From a virus (Duplodnaviria; Caudoviricetes): DNA of 64,000 bases. The notes beneath the pieces are model-generated. The model was not told the DNA's origin and ran no database searches. It saw only the letters and a program-made list of their open reading frames with translations. Location: IMG/VR virus record IMGVR_UViG_3300014204_000110, one strand, 5' to 3'. Numbering within the stretch: the first letter of the stretch is position 1; each line of letters begins with the position of its first letter. A program made the translations under genes and the position numbers. Positions 1,347 to 35,440 of the stretch are shown here, one piece after another.

Positions 1347-2321
1347 TTATCCTATTTCTTTAATATCATTTATAGTTGGACCATAACCAAACCATGATAT
1401 TTTTGAGATGTTATTTAATCTAGAATAAAATTCATTACAATTATCTTTATTAAGATAATTAATAAAATTCATAAATACATTAGTTACACCATTCATTAAA
1501 CAAGATTCTTTATATTGTTCAATAGAAAAAGAAAATAATCTTCTTACTTTTTTACTAATAGTTGTTAATTCTGGTACTTGCTTAATATCATTCCAGGTTA
1601 TTTCATGTTGGTCTTGATAATATGGTCCTGAATAACCAATCATATTACCTATATTATCAAAATGATTAGCAACTCTAATTGGATAAGTACGCATACAAGC
1701 TATAATTTTATCGACCCATTGAATAGGAATTCCTGCATCAGCTAATCCTTGTTGTGGACTTGTATTACGGCTAGTACAATAAGGATAAAATCCATGATTT
1801 AGTGATAATGAATGTCCTTGTGGTATTGCTAATTGAATATGTTTACATGATTTTAACAATTCAAACCAATTTCTTGCACTAATTGTAAATTCTGGTAATA
1901 TTTTATTAGCAGTATTTATATTTTTAGGATCTCTATTTATTTTTTGAATAATAGAAGTACTAGTACCTCTCATAGTAGATCCTATTTGTATTAAATTCTT
2001 TTCTTTTTCTATATTATTTTCAGTTATTATTGTTGCATTTTCATGAATTAGAATTTTTGCATCTTTAGGAAGAAGTGCTTGCTCTTTCCAAAAATCAGTT
2101 ATATTAATGATTGATCCTGGTGATAATAAATGTAAACATGGTGCATTAGTAGCAAATGTTGTCCATTTATTACCATTTGAATCAAAACCTCCAGAATTTG
2201 GACCAAAATTACTTACAATTGTATCTGGATTATATTTATGAAAATAATATTCATTAAAAAGTCGTTTACCTTCACTACCATATTGTCCACCAAAAATTAT
2301 ATCTACCTTTGGATTATTCAT
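1347..2321 (-). CDS. purZ: PurZ-type adenylosuccinate synthetase homolog (divergent)
   Basis: GGQYGSEGK (Ser for the PurA Asp), ILIHENA, IGST, YPYCTSR, YPIRVAN, SGP.Y.DQ.EI, ELTT..K..RR.F.FS, NFINY are features of phage PurZ rather than PurA. Confidence 0.75.
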   Translation of the reverse strand: MNNPKVDIIFGGQYGSEGKRLFNEYYFHKYNPDTIVSNFGPNSGGFDSNGNKWTTFATNAPCLHLLSPGSIINITDFWKEQALLPKDAKILIHENATIITENNIEKEKNLIQIGSTMRGTSTSIIQKINRDPKNINTANKILPEFTISARNWFELLKSCKHIQLAIPQGHSLSLNHGFYPYCTSRNTSPQQGLADAGIPIQWVDKIIACMRTYPIRVANHFDNIGNMIGYSGPYYQDQHEITWNDIKQVPELTTISKKVRRLFSFSIEQYKESCLMNGVTNVFMNFINYLNKDNCNEFYSRLNNISKISWFGYGPTINDIKEIG

Positions 2322-2322
2322 A

Positions 2323-3816
2323 TTATCCTATATCATAATTTTCAATAGTTTTAACTAAATTATTTTCACCTTGTTCTACAACTGAAATATAATCAAGTAC
2401 TTTATCACTCCATCCAGCTATAAGATTGACGTTATTACCAATTACTTTTATACTTCCATGCCCAGCTAGATCTATTGAATGAATCCACATGTTTTTATTT
2501 TTAGTTTTGAGCTGAGATGCATATCTTTGAGTATCTGAAGTTCTATAATCATAAGAGCTATCATTATAACATTGCATATCTGAAAATATAATAACTCTAT
2601 CAATAGGTTCATTTAAACTGTTAAGTACTTTAAACGCTTCATGAAGATTAGTACTATGACCTACTCCAGAATGCTCTAGTTTAGAAATATTATCAAATAT
2701 ACTTGCTTTTGTTGAAAGATGTATAATTTTAGCAGTTTCTCCAAATGGAACAGCTATAGAGTTATCACAAAATTTAACTGCTGCTGATGCTAAAAGATTA
2801 CCAATTTGTCTCATTTGAACAATACTATCTTTTGAAATAGTACTATCCATACTACCACTTTCATCAGTTATAATAGCAGTAGTTCCAGATAATTTAGGAA
2901 GATTTTCAAATGAAATCAATAGTGCATCTTCAATAGTATCTAGAACTTTTGTACATCTAGTTTTACCAAGAGTTTCAACCATTTTATAAGCAGAGAAAAA
3001 TCTAAATGGAAGTTGTTTAGATTTACGTACTTCTTCTGGATTCTTAAGTATGTTGCATACTTTATCTAGATGAATGTCTGAAATATTATTTTCAAGCATA
3101 TTTTTAAGATTACGTAAAAGCATCATATATCCAGCTTTACTATCTATAATCTCTTCCCATACTTTTTTACTTTGACCTTTTTCTGAAAGTATTGTTTCTC
3201 TTGTTTTAGGAGTTTTAAGACGATCTTCTATAAGACGTTTCCAAAGATCAGCTTGTTCCTGATCTTTAGGTTTTGGTCGACATAAAAGTAATGCGTCTTT
3301 AAGCTTTACAGTGCTTTTAGAGCCTTTGTATCGTGAGAGGCTATATTCATCAAACTTTGGAAATACATCTGCTATACCTCTTCGTAAGCTTCTAGGAATA
3401 GGATTAACTTGTCTTTTACCTAAAGATAGATGATAAGCTAAGATATTAGTAATATCATCAACTCGTTCAATGATTTTACTGATCATTTTACGAACAATTC
3501 TATTACCTTTAGCACCTTTTGCTACTTCTGCGGCAAGTACATGAGATACACTACGCATATGAAATTCATTACGTGCGTAACAAGCAAGTCGTGCTACAAA
3601 TTCAGGATCTTCAGATATAACTCTACGTGCTACTGAAATAAGTTCTGAAGTATTATCTCCATAAAATTTAGGTTCATTAATGAAACTGGTGAGTACTTCT
3701 GTTACGAGTTTTTCTTTATCTTTAAGATCATAAGCGAGTCCACCAGCTTTATTTATTGTTTTTCTAGTAGTAATTGTTGATCTACCAGTACTAACTGCTT
3801 TTGTATTTGCTTTCAT
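2323..3816 (-). CDS. rsr: Ro60/Rsr TROVE-domain RNA-binding protein with C-terminal vWA
   Basis: TINKAGGLAY, EPKFY, YARNEFHMRS, FDEYSLSRY, LLRNLKNM, SKQLPFRFFSAY, DESGSM (MIDAS), IIFSDMQ, IAGWSDKV. Confidence 0.92.
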   Translation of the reverse strand: MKANTKAVSTGRSTITTRKTINKAGGLAYDLKDKEKLVTEVLTSFINEPKFYGDNTSELISVARRVISEDPEFVARLACYARNEFHMRSVSHVLAAEVAKGAKGNRIVRKMISKIIERVDDITNILAYHLSLGKRQVNPIPRSLRRGIADVFPKFDEYSLSRYKGSKSTVKLKDALLLCRPKPKDQEQADLWKRLIEDRLKTPKTRETILSEKGQSKKVWEEIIDSKAGYMMLLRNLKNMLENNISDIHLDKVCNILKNPEEVRKSKQLPFRFFSAYKMVETLGKTRCTKVLDTIEDALLISFENLPKLSGTTAIITDESGSMDSTISKDSIVQMRQIGNLLASAAVKFCDNSIAVPFGETAKIIHLSTKASIFDNISKLEHSGVGHSTNLHEAFKVLNSLNEPIDRVIIFSDMQCYNDSSYDYRTSDTQRYASQLKTKNKNMWIHSIDLAGHGSIKVIGNNVNLIAGWSDKVLDYISVVEQGENNLVKTIENYDIG

Positions 3817-3873
3817 GACACCCTCCGTAAGAGATTATATTTTTAATAAAGGTTAATATATAACCAATATAGG

Positions 3874-4104
3874 TTAATTTATAAACATTAAAATTATCCA
3901 AGTAAATATTGCTAAAGGAATTGATAATTGTCCTATTGCTGGACAGAAACCTATAAGCGAACCTTGCCACCAAACTATAGCATCTGGTTTTCCCATAAAA
4001 TTTAACCAACTATTAATCGTATAAGGCCAACATATTGCTCCAATAATAGCACTTATAAGTAATATAAAAATAAATCCACCACAACTGGTTTTAACTGAAG
4101 CCAT
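3874..4104 (-). CDS. small membrane protein
   Basis: Two or three hydrophobic segments; probable start MASVK after AAGGAG (the longer ORF call overlaps an ncRNA). Confidence 0.6.
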   Translation of the reverse strand: MASVKTSCGGFIFILLISAIIGAICWPYTINSWLNFMGKPDAIVWWQGSLIGFCPAIGQLSIPLAIFTWIILMFIN

Positions 4105-4133
4105 AAAATTCTCCTTTAAGTTAAAATAAAAAA

Positions 4134-4196
4134 TAGCGGAAAAATCGATAAATGTATTTTTTTCACACAAGAAGTAACATTTATCAGCATCCGCTA
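4134..4196 (-). ncRNA. Y-RNA-like module A (minimal, no tRNA-like domain)
   Basis: UAGCGGA/UCCGCUA outer stem, UGCU/GAUUUU internal loop, GAUAAAUGU/ACAUUUAUC inner stem, UACUUC. Confidence 0.65.
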
Positions 4197-4202
4197 AAGT
4201 TA

Positions 4203-4310
4203 TACAATAGTAATAAGAATCGAACTTACCTTTACGATACGTCTATCGATTAGTCTTCCAATAGGACTAGTCCTCGTGAGACCATGTTCCCCAGATCATC
4301 ATACTATTGT
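4203..4310 (-). ncRNA. atypical tRNA-like RNA with extra hairpins
   Basis: 9-bp acceptor ACAAUAGUA/UACUAUUGU, T-arm GUAAG-UUCGAUU-CUUAU, D-like hairpin, no canonical anticodon arm. Confidence 0.5.
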
Positions 4311-4316
4311 TTGTTA

Positions 4317-4436
4317 TAATAATATAGCGTGTTATTACACCAAAAAACTACCATTCAGATTAGCTTTATTTCAGCCACTCGCTTTTCATTTACTCATTAA
4401 AGATGCTCTACTATTAAGGCTACTACTATATTATTA
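4317..4436 (-). ncRNA. 23S rRNA H43/H44 (GTPase centre)-like RNA, copy 1
   Basis: Closing stem UAAUAAUAUAG/CUAUAUUAUUA; AGUAGCCUUAAUAGUAGAGCAUCUUUAAUGAGU ... UUUGGUGUAAUAACAC; paralog at 35212-35440. Confidence 0.55.
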
Positions 4437-4447
4437 AAGTTAAAAAA

Positions 4448-4574
4448 TAAACGGTAAAAGCATTTTTAGTATTTTACGTGCTCTAACCAACTGAGCTATC
4501 TATTAGAATCTAATAGAAAAGGACTCGAACCTTTGACATCGTCATATGAAGTAACTAAAAATAACAACCGTTTA
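4448..4574 (-). ncRNA. YrlA-type Y RNA module B (permuted tRNA mimic)
   Basis: Ro-type stem + UACUUC, then T-arm AAAGG-UUCGAGU-CCUUU, loop-closed acceptor UCUAUUAG/CUAAUAGA, D-arm UAGCUCAGUUGGUUAGAGC. Confidence 0.85.
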
Positions 4575-4583
4575 ATATATAAA

Positions 4584-4677
4584 AATGAGAAAATCTATTA
4601 AAGTTATGGCCCATGCCGTATAAGAAAAATCTTATACTTAGAATCGAACTAAGAAGTAGCTCTAATATACACTCATT
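4584..4677 (-). ncRNA. YrlA-type module C (reduced D-arm)
   Basis: Same stem/UACUUC; T-arm CUUAG-UUCGAUU-CUAAG, closed acceptor UAUAAGA/UCUUAUA, mini D-hairpin GGCAUGGGCC. Confidence 0.7.
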
Positions 4678-4690
4678 ATAATTTACAAAA

Positions 4691-4771
4691 AGTGGGAAAA
4701 TTTAAAAGTCTTGGTAAGTTTCCTTACCTTCTGATATGTATAGTAGAAGTAAGACTTTTTAAACACCCACT
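4691..4771 (-). ncRNA. Y-RNA-like module D
   Basis: AGUGGG/CCCACU, AAAAGUCU/AGACUUUU, UACUUC; payload hairpin GGUAAG-GAAA-CUUACC. Confidence 0.65.
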
Positions 4772-4780
4772 AAATTAAAT

Positions 4781-4914
4781 AAGATCGACAAAAATTATAG
4801 CAGTCTTTTTATACGGTCGCCTTACCACTTGGCTATAGATAACAAGTTATCTAGTAAGATTCGAACTTACGGTAACTGTTCCAATGGAAGTATCTGCTAA
4901 AAACATCCGACCTT
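4781..4914 (-). ncRNA. YrlA-type Y RNA module E (permuted tRNA mimic)
   Basis: AAGGUCGG/UCGAUCUU, UAGCAG/CUGCUA, UACUUC; T-arm GUAAG-UUCGAAU-CUUAC; closed acceptor UAGAUAAC/GUUAUCUA; D-arm UAGCCAAGUGGUAAGGC. Confidence 0.85.
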
Positions 4915-4918
4915 AAAG

Positions 4919-5323
4919 TTACTGTTTTGATTTGAAATGCAATTCTCTATGACAATTTGCACATAAAATTATACATTTATCTATTTCTTCTAATATTTTT
5001 GTCTTTGAACATCTTCCCATCATTGATACTTCAAAATCTTTATTAGCTGGATCTACATGATGAAAATCTAACACATACCATCTATCATCTCTGCAGTTTT
5101 TACAAGATAAAGTTTTCTTTAAGTCAATATACCACTCTCGTATTCCATTTTCGTATGTCTTTCTTGTATTTTTTTCTTCTATTTTATGATCTTGATAATA
5201 TTTTAGTCTTCTTTTAGTTGAACAGTCAATACAGTACGGTTGTAGTACTGTTTTGGTTTTTAATTTTCTTTTCCAAAATTTATCATCATCTAAATGTCTA
5301 TTACATTTTTTGCAATATTTCAT
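4919..5323 (-). CDS. HNH endonuclease
   Basis: CKKC/CIDC N-terminus, CKNC..LDFHHVDP..K..CIILCANCHRELH. Confidence 0.85.
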   Translation of the reverse strand: MKYCKKCNRHLDDDKFWKRKLKTKTVLQPYCIDCSTKRRLKYYQDHKIEEKNTRKTYENGIREWYIDLKKTLSCKNCRDDRWYVLDFHHVDPANKDFEVSMMGRCSKTKILEEIDKCIILCANCHRELHFKSKQ

Positions 5324-5391
5324 AGTGACCTCCTATATTTAGTATAGGCTGTCATTTATATTTTTGATTGACAATCAAGTGCATTAACCAA

Positions 5392-5667
5392 CTATGCTAA
5401 TATATCATTAAAGTATCCGTTTTCAAAATCATTCAATAAATGTACACCATTAGTAAAATTATATTTAAAATCTGTAGATTTTACATATTCAAGAAAAAGT
5501 GGTTGTTCAGTAACAGAAAAACCATCATAACTACCATTTTTAAATATAACGCTTATTGCAGTACCAAGTCCATCAAAGTCTGGATATTCGTCATAAACGT
5601 ATCCTAGAGTATTTATTGGATTTGCTAGACAAAGTACTTTAAGTTTTACTATATCTCCAATTTTCAT
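5392..5667 (-). CDS. hypothetical protein
   Basis: 91 aa ORF. Confidence 0.6.
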   Translation of the reverse strand: MKIGDIVKLKVLCLANPINTLGYVYDEYPDFDGLGTAISVIFKNGSYDGFSVTEQPLFLEYVKSTDFKYNFTNGVHLLNDFENGYFNDILA

Positions 5668-5689
5668 AAAAATCCTTAAATAAATTATA

Positions 5690-5812
5690 ATATAATGAAA
5701 AAAGCTAGAACAGAGATTGTCGGCTATACGACTTTAAGTATTACTTAAAGCTCTGAATTTCACGTTTATACAAATTATAAAAGAAGTAACTGTTCTAAAA
5801 CATCCATTATAT
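5690..5812 (-). ncRNA. Y-RNA-like module F
   Basis: AUAUAAUG/CAUUAUAU, UAGAACAG/CUGUUCUA, UACUUC; payload with CUUUAAGUA/UACUUAAAG and GUCG/CGAC hairpins. Confidence 0.65.
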
Positions 5813-5836
5813 CATAAAAATTAAAAATAAATTAAG

Positions 5837-6196
5837 CTATGTAATATTTATCTTTTCCCATAAAAATGGTATATAAGTTGCTCTTATTCCAACATTACCT
5901 AGAACATTAAGCATTGCTGCTGCTCCAATATTATTAGCAGTATGAATAAATATCTTGTCTGGAGCATGTTCTGGATTATTTGCTATCCAATTAGCAACTT
6001 CATATCCAGTACCTTCACCAGGTACATCAAAAGTATCACCAAGATCATGATCTAACATGAGATAATCATACTTATTATTTTTAAGAAGATCTATTGCTTC
6101 TTTAGGTATGTCTGTAAAAGTTACATTACAATCAATAAGACGCTTTTTAAATTGAAATATACGTTCAGCATTATCTTCAAGTATTAGTATTTTCAT
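5837..6196 (-). CDS. cyclic-phosphate-processing receiver-like domain protein
   Basis: ILILEDN.ER, LDHDLG, GTGYEVANWI, IHTAN..G...M pattern of the RNA-repair-associated REC family. Confidence 0.75.
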   Translation of the reverse strand: MKILILEDNAERIFQFKKRLIDCNVTFTDIPKEAIDLLKNNKYDYLMLDHDLGDTFDVPGEGTGYEVANWIANNPEHAPDKIFIHTANNIGAAAMLNVLGNVGIRATYIPFLWEKINIT

Positions 6197-6633
6197 TTTA
6201 ATCTTTCATTTATAAGTTGACTTATTCTTTTACTATCAAACAAACCTTTAGTCTGAGACATAACTTGCTTTATTACTAAACCCATTTCTTTTTTAGAAGT
6301 AGCATTTAAAGTTTTAATACTTTCGTTTATAATATCAGTTACTTCTTGTTCAGACATTTGTTTTGGTTGATATCTTTTGAGTATATCTATTTCATTTTGT
6401 TCTTTGGTTACTAGATCTTGTCTGTTGCCTTTAATGAACATTTCAATTGATTCTTCATGTTGTTTAATACTTTTGTTTACGATACTTATAACAAGATCAT
6501 CTGTTATTTCTAAACGTTTATTAAGTTTTTGAAGTTGTATGTCTGAGTCTAGAGTTCTTAGAACAGTAGTTTCACCGTTTTTAGTTTTCATACTTGTAAT
6601 TATATCAAATTTAATTTGTTCATAAATAGACAT
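6193..6633 (-). CDS. GatB/YqeY domain protein
   Basis: MK..LR..I..ESIEMF..GNRQDLV..E..EIDILKRYQPKQMSE..KEMG.V; true start MSIYEQ at 6633 (upstream extension is the tRNA). Confidence 0.88.
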   Translation of the reverse strand: MSIYEQIKFDIITSMKTKNGETTVLRTLDSDIQLQKLNKRLEITDDLVISIVNKSIKQHEESIEMFIKGNRQDLVTKEQNEIDILKRYQPKQMSEQEVTDIINESIKTLNATSKKEMGLVIKQVMSQTKGLFDSKRISQLINERLK

Positions 6634-6649
6634 AAATGTTCCTTTAAAG

Positions 6650-6723
6650 TGCAGTAAGTAAGATTTGAACTTACGATATTCTGTTTGGAAGACAGACTCC
6701 TTAACCAACTGGGATATTACTGC
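6650..6723 (-). tRNA. tRNA-Gly(UCC)
   Basis: GCAGUAA/UUACUGC acceptor, anticodon arm UCUGU-CUUCCAA-ACAGA, T-loop UUCAAAU. Confidence 0.9.
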
Positions 6724-35211: not shown

Positions 35212-35440
35212 TAATATAATTATAACGTGTTGTTACACCAAAGAAACTTACCCATTGGGTGGAAGTCTTTAACTTCACTTACTCCTATTTTACCAACAGC
35301 ACATCATCTATATATACCTTGAATAATTTTTATGTATTATGAATTACCCATTAGATATTTGTAGACATATCGCACTAGTTGGTAGTTCGTCTCACTCATT
35401 AAAGATGGCTACTTCTAAGCCTACTATTATAATTATATTA
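35212..35440 (-). ncRNA. 23S rRNA H43/H44 (GTPase centre)-like RNA, copy 2
   Basis: 14-bp closing stem; GUAGGCUUAGAAGUAGCCAUCUUUAAUGAG ... UUUGGUGUAACAACAC. Confidence 0.65.

What the first reader, a model, noticed from the sequence alone, without database searches (positions are those of the whole stretch)
2323..6723. Phage Ro60 locus with an array of six modular Y RNAs: constant Ro-type stem, swappable payload
Seen: upstream of the TROVE gene on the same strand lie six elements (4134-4196, 4448-4574, 4584-4677, 4691-4771, 4781-4914, 5690-5812). Each has a 6-8 bp outer stem, a UG(C/U)N strand opposite a U-rich strand, a 6-9 bp inner stem, then invariant UACUUC. Stem sequences differ between copies while pairing is kept (covariation). 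Payloads differ: B and E carry T-arm, loop-closed acceptor stem, then D-arm (the circularly permuted tRNA mimic of YrlA), C a reduced version, D and F other hairpins, A almost nothing. Known: bacterial Rsr binds Y RNAs that tether effectors such as PNPase, usually with one or two Y RNAs per locus. Inference: the phage builds a library of Ro RNPs with different RNA effector or decoy domains, possibly to absorb or redirect host anticodon nucleases and tRNA-targeting defences. The same block encodes a cyclic-phosphate-processing REC protein, YqeY and tRNA-Gly.
Basis: partly seen in the sequence, partly recalled or inferred. Interest (0 to 1): 0.9.

Follow-up and report, generated by a model that had tools for sequence, protein, structure and literature searches.

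The report
Six-gene Y RNA array beside phage Ro60
An uncultured jumbo phage carries six small RNA genes next to its Ro60 gene that share one docking stem but have different heads (two mimic tRNA); they are real Y RNAs, but similar arrays of three to six occur in many phages and soil bacteria, so this is a large example of a known kind.

Summary
Six elements lie on the minus strand (4134-4196, 4448-4574, 4584-4677, 4691-4771, 4781-4914, 5690-5812), upstream of a TROVE/Ro60 gene (2323-3816). Each has an outer stem, a UG(U/C) internal loop opposite a U-rich strand, an inner stem, then UACUUC.

A covariance model built only from related loci recovered five of them as its five best hits in the window; F was recovered only weakly. 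Rfam's YrlA model matches B and E below its threshold.

The two conserved strands sit where the published YrlA motifs GNCGAAN0-1G and YUAY lie. The same module, including UACUUC, occurs beside Ro60 in related uncultured phages (up to 6-7 copies), in Brevundimonas phage Gurke (5-6), Arthrobacter phage Atuin (about 6), crAss001 (3) and soil bacteria (3-5).

So the Y RNA reading holds, and the array is at the top of a common range, not unique. The tRNA-nuclease decoy idea has no support: these tRNA mimics lack an anticodon loop. Expression and Ro60 binding are untested.

This scan has reported similar arrays on other phage DNA before.

Side result: an HNH endonuclease gene has cut off the 3' third of a tRNA-Asp gene inside the array.

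The parts
2323..3816 (-). Ro60 (TROVE plus vWA-like) gene, 497 aa
   Evidence: Pfam TROVE E=3e-35. Best solved relative is Thermus phage phiLo Ro60, 9KOP/9L5Y, E=1e-32 over residues 24-488.
3874..4104 (-). Small hydrophobic ORF (about 76 aa) between element A and Ro60; AAGGAG lies before its ATG
   Evidence: No Pfam match. Its role in the system is unknown.
4134..4196 (-). Y RNA A: minimal module (7-bp outer stem, UGC, 10-bp inner stem, UACUUC, 15-nt remainder of loop), YrlB-like
   Evidence: Fold z=-4.9. Descriptor hit. R1 23.3 bits, E=6e-4 in the whole window.
4448..4574 (-). Y RNA B: YrlA-type, with T-arm, 8-bp closed acceptor-like hairpin and canonical D-arm
   Evidence: Rfam YrlA 45.9 bits, E=1.6e-8, below the gathering score of 69. 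R1 65.5 bits, E=1e-14.
4584..4677 (-). Y RNA C: reduced tRNA-like head (T-arm, 8-bp hairpin, 3-bp mini-hairpin)
   Evidence: R1 18.3 bits, E=0.011.
4691..4771 (-). Y RNA D: module with two hairpins, one closed by a GAAA loop
   Evidence: Fold z=-4.1. Descriptor hit. R1 16.2 bits, E=0.037.
4781..4914 (-). Y RNA E: YrlA-type, with T-arm, closed acceptor-like hairpin and D-arm
   Evidence: Rfam YrlA 32.1 bits, E=1.6e-4. R1 41.4 bits, E=1e-8.
4919..5323 (-). HNH endonuclease gene, an insertion that splits the array
   Evidence: PHROG 2255, E=2e-29. Absent from relatives' contigs, which bridge 4921->5364 and 4900->5681.
5365..5406 (-). Remnant of a tRNA-Asp(GUC) gene: acceptor 5' strand, D-arm and anticodon arm, with T-arm and 3' strand lost
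   Evidence: Rfam tRNA 28.7 bits with the T-arm deleted. With the relative's 33 letters in place ARAGORN calls an intact tRNA-Asp; the window alone gives none.
5690..5812 (-). Y RNA F: module (10-bp outer stem, 9-bp inner stem) with three hairpins that lack T- and D-loop signatures; the weakest member
   Evidence: Best descriptor score. R1 only 11 bits, E=0.78 in the window and 0.021 in the region. Directly abuts E in a relative.
5837..6196 (-). cREC (cyclic-phosphate-processing receiver) gene
   Evidence: Pfam cREC_REC E=7e-18. Also present near the array in L001.
6193..6633 (-). YqeY-like gene. The likely ATG is at 6633; the longer TTG reading would overlap the tRNA gene.
   Evidence: Pfam YqeY E=1e-37, with the match starting at residue 30 of the long ORF.
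6649..6723 (-). tRNA-Gly(UCC) gene upstream on the same strand
   Evidence: ARAGORN and Rfam tRNA 66.9 bits.
4204..4436 (-). Two further closed-stem elements in the gap between B and A (4204-4310 with a T-arm; 4317-4436). They lack the Ro module and their status is open.
   Evidence: Closing stems of 9 and 12 bp, but folding z-scores of only -1.4 and -0.9. No Rfam or ARAGORN call. 4317-4436 shares two colinear blocks with 35221-35436.

Best explanation
The six elements are genes for Y RNAs, the small RNA partners of Ro60.

Each RNA pairs its 5' and 3' ends into a two-helix docking module. The UG(U/C) strand and the UACUUC strand are diverged forms of the YrlA motifs GNCGAAN0-1G and YUAY. I infer that the phage's own Ro60 ring binds this module.

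The part between the two strands of the inner stem is a free 'head', and it differs between copies: a full permuted tRNA mimic in B and E, a reduced one in C, other hairpins in D and F, and almost nothing in A.

The genes lie head to tail, 9-13 nt apart, among tRNA genes on one strand. They are therefore most likely made as one or a few precursors and cut out like tRNAs.

By analogy with Deinococcus, Salmonella and Thermus phage phiLo, each RNA would gate Ro60's cavity and tether it to a partner chosen by its head. Candidates are PNPase-type exoribonucleases or tRNA-recognising factors. The phage would then make several Ro60 particles with different partners during infection.

Shown: the sequence architecture, its conservation, its covariation and its linkage to Ro60. 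Inferred: transcription, processing, Ro60 binding and the partners.
For: - A strict descriptor finds exactly the six claimed elements in the window; chance expectation in the region is 0.013.
- Rfam YrlA matches B (E=1.6e-8) and E (E=1.6e-4).
- Model R1, built only from 11 YrlA-type RNAs of related loci, ranks B, E, A, C and D as its five best hits over both strands of the 64-kb window, with the claimed ends.
- All 135 R1 hits in 62 Ro60 loci lie on the Ro60 strand.
- Across 87 distinct hits from phages, bacteria and the window, 94.2% of cells pair against 35-47% when partners are slid, and all 30 pairs show compensatory changes.
- The window copies alone give 94.9% against 37-46%.
- The two conserved strands correspond in position to the motifs of Chen et al. 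2014 (PMC4201824).
- The Ro60 protein is full length, and its closest solved relative is phiLo Ro60, which binds two phage Y RNA-like RNAs and PNPase (PMC12135203).
- Contigs of close relatives keep the array. Their substitutions fall mostly in loops, and those in stems keep pairing.
- D. radiodurans makes Yrn2, tRNA-Asp and Yrn1 as one precursor (PMC4201824). An intact tRNA-Asp sits inside this array in a relative.
Against: - There is no expression evidence for this phage: only DNA runs hold the stretch.
- Ro60 binding is not tested.
- B and E score below Rfam's gathering score (45.9 and 32.1 against 69 bits).
- The GNCGAA motif is reduced to UG(U/C), so docking could differ.
- F is not significant under R1 in a whole-window search (E=0.78).
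- The model-guided alignments are fitted to the structure, which inflates the pairing percentages.
- The partners of the heads are unknown even for well-studied YrlA.
- The host is unknown.
Confidence: 0.7

Rival explanations
1. RNA-repair platform. Ro60 and the tRNA-like Y RNAs, together with the neighbouring cREC phosphoesterase and an ATP-dependent ligase, form a machine that captures and mends phage or host tRNAs cut by host defence nucleases. The different heads would match different damaged substrates or repair enzymes.
For: cREC lies next to the array here and in L001, whose Ro60 is 42% identical. An ATP-dependent ligase lies within 3 kb of Ro60 in both. L001 adds PTH2, tmRNA and five tRNAs. 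The comparative literature treats TROVE plus a tRNA-like RNA as an RNA-repair platform and links cREC to RNA ligases (PMC7824862). Salmonella has rsr-yrlBA-rtcBA (PMC7790460).
Against: The ligase belongs to the DNA_ligase_A_M family and may simply be the replication ligase. No RtcB, Rnl or polynucleotide kinase was found among the ORFs I scanned. Linkage alone does not show a joint function. This idea overlaps with the best explanation and does not exclude it.
Confidence: 0.2
2. Decoy library. The heads soak up or misdirect host anticodon nucleases and other tRNA-targeting defences.
For: B, E and C display tRNA elbows with canonical T-loops; B and E also have D-loops. The phage invests in its own tRNAs, five in this window, which is a common answer to tRNA-targeting defences.
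Against: In these RNAs the anticodon stem runs into the Ro module, so there is no anticodon loop. The acceptor end is a closed hairpin without CCA (solved YrlA, bioRxiv 10.1101/312249). Nucleases that recognise the anticodon loop therefore have no site. Three of the six heads are not tRNA-like. The same arrays occur in free-living soil bacteria, where a phage counter-defence role cannot apply.
Confidence: 0.07
3. Not separate RNAs. The elements are hairpin punctuation (terminators or processing and stability signals) or decaying tRNA duplicates in a tRNA-rich intergenic region.
For: Each outer stem is followed by U-rich sequence in an AT-rich genome. A sits directly before a small ORF. One true tRNA gene in the region has decayed.
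Against: The terminator scan finds nothing on this strand. The shared two-helix module with two conserved single-stranded motifs recurs beside Ro60 across phyla with strong covariation, which terminators or pseudogenes would not show. Heads A, D and F have no tRNA ancestry visible.
Confidence: 0.03

Closest known systems
Salmonella Typhimurium / Mycobacterium smegmatis YrlA and YrlB with Rsr (Rfam RF02553; Chen et al. 2014, PMC4201824)
   Same: Encoded upstream of Ro60 on the same strand. A 5'/3' stem with an internal loop carries the Ro-contact motif. YUAY begins the head. In YrlA the head is a permuted tRNA (T-arm, closed acceptor-like hairpin, D-arm), as in B and E. A second, hairpin-only RNA (YrlB) resembles A and D.
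   Different: Six copies here, against two published per species. The Ro-contact strand is UG(U/C), not GNCGAAN0-1G. UACUUC is longer than YUAY. B and E score below Rfam's gathering score. Heads C and F are intermediate forms that have not been described.
Thermus phage phiLo Ro60 with Yrl1 and Yrl2 (PMC12135203; PDB 9KOP, 9L5Y)
   Same: A phage-encoded Ro60, the closest solved relative of this protein, with Y RNA-like genes upstream. In that system, binding and a ternary complex with host PNPase were shown.
   Different: Two RNAs, not six. My model finds only a weak hit in that locus. No tRNA-like head is reported there.
Deinococcus radiodurans Yrn1/Yrn2 cluster upstream of rsr
   Same: Several small RNAs upstream of rsr, made as one precursor together with a tRNA-Asp. 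They are Rsr-dependent and tether Rsr to PNPase (PMC4201824).
   Different: Two confirmed Y RNAs (four small RNAs seen). The arrangement of the tRNA-like parts differs. It is a cellular stress system, not a phage one.
Unannotated arrays in deposited phages: Brevundimonas phage Gurke, Arthrobacter phage Atuin, Bacteroides phage crAss001
   Same: Same module, with UACUUC about 23 nt from the 5' end in many copies. There are 5-6, about 6 and 3 copies next to Ro60 on its strand.
   Different: They are not annotated as Y RNAs in the records; one in Gurke is labelled tRNA-Ser. In Atuin and crAss001 most copies lie downstream of Ro60. I found no paper describing these arrays.
Vertebrate Y1, Y3, Y4 and Y5 RNAs
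   Same: A small family of paralogues with a conserved Ro60-binding stem and variable loops that recruit different proteins.
   Different: They are separate Pol III genes, not a tandem array. They have no tRNA-like head, and the stem motif is different (GGUCCGA with a bulged C).

Membership tests
YrlA (Rfam RF02553) | Score at or above Rfam's gathering score (69 bits) | tested here: not met
   B scores 45.9 bits (E=1.6e-8) and E 32.1 bits (E=1.6e-4). A, C, D and F give no match.
YrlA (Chen et al. 2014) | Encoded within about 4 kb of the Ro60 gene on the same strand | tested here: met
   All six lie 0.3-2.0 kb upstream of 2323-3816 on the minus strand.
YrlA (Chen et al. 2014) | tRNA-like domain: T-arm, closed acceptor-like stem-loop and D-arm in permuted order | tested here: met
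   Met for B and E. Partly met for C (T-arm and hairpin, D-arm reduced). Not met for A, D and F.
YrlA / YrlB (Chen et al. 2014) | GNCGAAN0-1G motif near the 5' end (proposed Ro contact) | tested here: inconclusive
   The window copies have G-N-UG(U/C)-(U/A) at that position. Related phages have G(U/C)G(U/C)AG and soil bacteria have GGCGAAG or GGUGAAG. The position matches but the sequence has diverged.
YrlA (Chen et al. 2014) | Conserved YUAY at the start of the head (V loop) | tested here: met
   UUAC in A, B, D and F, CUAC in C, AUAC in E (E has a purine at the first position). In every copy the motif extends to UACUUC.
Y RNA (general) | A long stem formed by the 5' and 3' ends, with an internal loop, supported by covariation | tested here: met
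   94.9% of cells pair in the six copies and 94.2% across 87 homologues, against 35-47% when partners are slid.
Y RNA (general) | Stable small RNA that is physically bound by Ro60 | not testable with these tools
   No RNA run holds the stretch. No RNA-protein binding tool is available.
Ro60 / Rsr protein | TROVE (HEAT-repeat ring) followed by a vWA-like domain, full length | tested here: met
   Pfam TROVE E=3e-35 plus a weak DUF7788 match at residues 316-423. Aligns to phiLo Ro60 over residues 24-488.

The most novel reading that the evidence does not exclude
Tandem arrays of three to seven Y RNAs, each with the same Ro60 docking module (marked by UACUUC) but a different head, are a general and so far undescribed way in which phages and some bacteria equip one Ro60 protein with a set of interchangeable adaptors. 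In jumbo phages the heads would each recruit a different host RNA enzyme, or protect or repair tRNAs, during infection.
Probability: 0.2. Interest if true: 0.7.

Novelty: new member of a known kind. Interest (0 to 1): 0.45.

Why it matters
Ro60 and Y RNAs are conserved from bacteria to humans, where Ro60 is a lupus and Sjögren autoantigen. What the variable part of a Y RNA does is still largely open.

- Arrays like this one lay out several natural head variants on one docking module beside one protein. They make a ready comparison set for asking which partners each head recruits.
- The module signature used here (two helices, a UGY/GYGYAG strand, UACUUC) finds hairpin-only Y RNAs. Chen et al. 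2014 could find those only by immunoprecipitation.
- The same signature shows that deposited phage genomes (Gurke, Atuin, crAss001) hold unannotated or mislabelled Y RNA genes.

For this particular locus the result is confirmation and placement, not a new kind of system.

Tried and rejected
- No whole genome is held for this window, so the rest of the phage could not be searched for more modules, PNPase or RNA ligases.
- No RNA holder is listed for the stretch. Nothing can be said about expression.
- The MAFFT alignment of the short module-only RNAs aligned the 5' halves but scrambled the 3' halves, so it could not be used for a model.
- The first 16-sequence YrlA-type alignment had five misaligned outliers, which I dropped.
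- RNAalifold missed the inner stem because two rows were shifted. I supplied the structure by hand after a register scan.
- The promoter and terminator scan found no more than chance.
- Folding energies of the two gap elements and of the tRNA remnant are not better than shuffles.
- The 2020 review (PMC10870794) and the supplementary tables of Chen et al. 2014 are not held. I could not check whether several YrlA per phage were already tabulated.
- Earlier scan notes claim that the handle resembles Dictyostelium Class I RNAs. The paper gives the motif only as logos, and the Rfam scan of the array at E<=10 listed no Class I match. I did not adopt the claim.
- A first script with hand-typed brackets failed on length and was replaced by constrained folding. 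In that script the parse of F was off by one, but no substitution fell in F.
- No close DNA relative exists in the phage collection apart from the HNH core.


Full report
**What is there.**
All genes in the first 10 kb of the window run on the minus strand. The 497-aa ORF at 2323-3816 is a full-length Ro60: Pfam TROVE E=3e-35, and its best solved relative is the Ro60 of Thermus phage phiLo (E=1e-32 over residues 24-488). Upstream on the same strand lie, in order:
- a tRNA-Gly(UCC) gene at 6649-6723;
- a YqeY-like gene and a cREC gene;
- element F;
- a 91-aa ORF;
- a T-armless tRNA-like piece;
- an HNH endonuclease gene;
- elements E, D, C and B;
- a 250-nt gap;
- element A;
- a small hydrophobic ORF;
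- Ro60.

Earlier notes of this scan and the run metadata describe the source as an uncultured groundwater/landfill jumbo myovirus.

**Check of the observation.**
Each of the six claimed intervals folds on its own into an outer stem, an internal loop and an inner stem. UACUUC sits directly 3' of the inner stem's 5' strand.

I wrote the architecture as a formal descriptor. It found exactly six matches in both strands of the 64-kb window, all at the claimed coordinates, although TACTTC itself occurs 71 times. Dinucleotide shuffles give 1.4 matches per 128 kb and 0.013 in the 1.7-kb region.

The descriptor was derived from these six elements, so I wanted an independent test. I fetched loci that encode related Ro60 proteins (33-52% identity). 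I aligned 11 of their tRNA-like RNAs and confirmed the structure on them: 89.7% of cells pair against 42-50% when partners are slid, and the covariation score is 0.66 against at most 0.19. From that alignment I built model R1, which contains no window sequence.

Searched with filters off over the whole window, R1's five best hits are the following, with the claimed ends:

| Element | Bits | E-value |
|---|---|---|
| B | 65.5 | 1e-14 |
| E | 41.4 | 1e-8 |
| A | 23.3 | 6e-4 |
| C | 18.3 | 0.011 |
| D | 16.2 | 0.037 |

F appears at the right place but only at 11 bits (E=0.78 for the window, 0.021 within the array region). It rests mainly on the descriptor, where it scores best, and on its position.

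Rfam's own YrlA model matches B (45.9 bits) and E (32.1 bits). Both are significant but below the gathering score of 69.

Among the six copies the inner-stem strands are only 40% identical. Each still pairs with its own partner at 7-8 of 8 positions (F, once its register is corrected, at 9 of 9), against 3.5 of 8 for non-cognate combinations. On the model-guided alignment 26 of 30 pairs show compensatory changes (that alignment is fitted to the model).

**What the conserved strands are.**
Chen et al. 2014 (PMC4201824) define two sequence motifs in bacterial YrlA. GNCGAAN0-1G lies near the 5' end and is the proposed Ro60 contact. YUAY begins the head.

The window's G-N-UG(U/C)-U strand and its (U/C/A)UAC-UUC strand occupy exactly these positions. 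Related phages have G(U/C)G(U/C)AG and UACUUCG. High-GC soil bacteria have GG(C/U)GAAG and UACUUCG. So the 'invariant UACUUC' is an extended form of a known motif that is shared across phyla. It is not an invention of this phage. What is diverged here is the shortened Ro-contact strand.

**How usual an array is.**
R1 gave 135 hits at E<0.01 in 62 Ro60 loci, and every one lies on the Ro60 strand. Counts of full-length module hits per locus:

| Locus | Source | Module hits |
|---|---|---|
| L001 | related phage contig | 6 (the descriptor suggests 7) |
| L016 | related phage contig, cut at its end | at least 5 |
| L003 | related phage contig, cut at its end | at least 4 |
| L011 | related phage contig | 4 |
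| L084, L056, L049, L053 | soil-bacterial loci | 4-5 |
| many others | | 2-3 |

Deposited cultured phages show the same:

| Phage | Module hits | Where |
|---|---|---|
| Brevundimonas phage Gurke | 5-6 | in the 840-nt gap before Ro60; one is annotated tRNA-Ser |
| Arthrobacter phage Atuin | about 6 | among its tRNA genes |
| crAss001 | 3 | in the unannotated gap after its TROVE gene |

Across 87 distinct hits the two module helices pair in 96% and 91% of cells, and every pair shows compensatory changes. The slid controls give 35-47%.

The published picture is 'at least two Y RNAs per species', with 254 bacteria and 22 phages carrying YrlA, two Yrl RNAs in phiLo, and three abundant RNAs upstream of an Rsr-like gene in a Listeria phage. 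I found no paper that describes arrays of five or more. This scan, however, has reported arrays of four to nine such RNAs beside Ro60-like genes in other phages.

**Evidence from close relatives.**
Only DNA runs hold this stretch. Laying contigs from four lake, freshwater and wastewater metagenomes showed close relatives of the array.
- One contig joins 4900 directly to 5681. E then abuts F, with no HNH gene, no 91-aa ORF and no tRNA piece between them.
- Another contig joins 4921 to 5364 through 33 other letters.
- With those 33 letters in place ARAGORN calls an intact tRNA-Asp(GTC) directly upstream of E. The window's own sequence gives no tRNA.

The HNH gene is therefore an insertion. It removed the T-arm and 3' strand of a tRNA-Asp gene that sits inside the array.

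Of 13 substitutions listed inside A-E, nine fall at unpaired positions and none falls in an outer stem. Those in the inner stems keep or restore pairing. These contigs have depth below 5, so this is weak support.

**How it most likely works.**
The sequence evidence supports six Ro60-partner RNAs made from a tRNA-like gene cluster. Spacers of 9-13 nt and the flanking tRNA genes suggest common precursors, as in D. radiodurans, where Yrn2, tRNA-Asp and Yrn1 are co-transcribed.

By analogy with Rsr/Yrn1/PNPase and with phiLo Ro60/Yrl/PNPase, each RNA would dock on Ro60 through the module and present its head to a partner. That step is inference. The partner of the tRNA-like head is unknown even for Salmonella YrlA.

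cREC and an ATP-dependent ligase also lie near the Ro60 array of L001, along with PTH2, tmRNA and tRNAs. This fits an RNA-maintenance neighbourhood (PMC7824862), but the ligase may be a DNA ligase.

The anticodon-nuclease decoy idea is weakened in two ways. There is no anticodon loop and no free CCA end in these heads. And the same arrays are present in free-living bacteria.

**Verdict.**
The array is a large and well-preserved member of a known class, and its multi-copy organisation is more common than the literature suggests. Expression, binding and function remain untested.

Noticed in passing
window 4919-5406: An HNH endonuclease gene (4919-5323) has replaced the T-arm and 3' acceptor strand of a tRNA-Asp(GUC) gene, leaving a remnant at about 5365-5406. 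A relative's contig has the intact tRNA and no HNH gene. Another relative lacks the whole 4901-5680 block.
   Followed up: yes
window 4204-4310 (-): A tRNA-like element in normal order, with a 9-bp closing stem and a T-arm (GUAAGUUCGAUUCUUAU), but without the Ro module. ARAGORN and Rfam do not call it, and its folding z-score is only -1.4.
   Followed up: partly
window 4317-4436 (-) and 35221-35436: An element closed by a 12-bp stem in the array gap shares two colinear blocks with a second locus 31 kb away (22 nt at 91%; 44 nt at 84%, E=7e-6). It is a two-member RNA family of unknown kind.
   Followed up: partly
L093 3823-3957 (Brevundimonas phage Gurke, ON529850.1): The feature annotated tRNA-Ser (3823-3897) lies inside an 86.9-bit YrlA-type hit (3824-3957), the last of 5-6 modules before Ro60. 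It is probably a Y RNA mislabelled as a tRNA.
   Followed up: partly
L089 5483-5872 (Bacteroides phage crAss001, MH675552.1): Three Y RNA modules lie in the unannotated gap just downstream of the TROVE gene gp96.
   Followed up: partly
L001 4038-4386 and 1402-1546: The related phage contig carries a tmRNA gene (119.5 bits) about 700 nt upstream of its Y RNA array. It also has a partial match to OLE RNA (45.9 bits, against a gathering score of 50).
   Followed up: no
window 1347-2321 (-); L090 586-1698: An adenylosuccinate-synthetase-like (PurA/PurZ-type) gene lies directly downstream of Ro60 here. A gene annotated '2-aminooxy adenylosuccinate synthetase' lies 2 kb upstream of Ro60 in Vibrio phage SRILMA. 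This may be coincidence.
   Followed up: no
window 3874-4104 (-): A small hydrophobic ORF (about 76 aa, with a good ribosome-binding site) is wedged between Y RNA A and Ro60. It matches no family.
   Followed up: no
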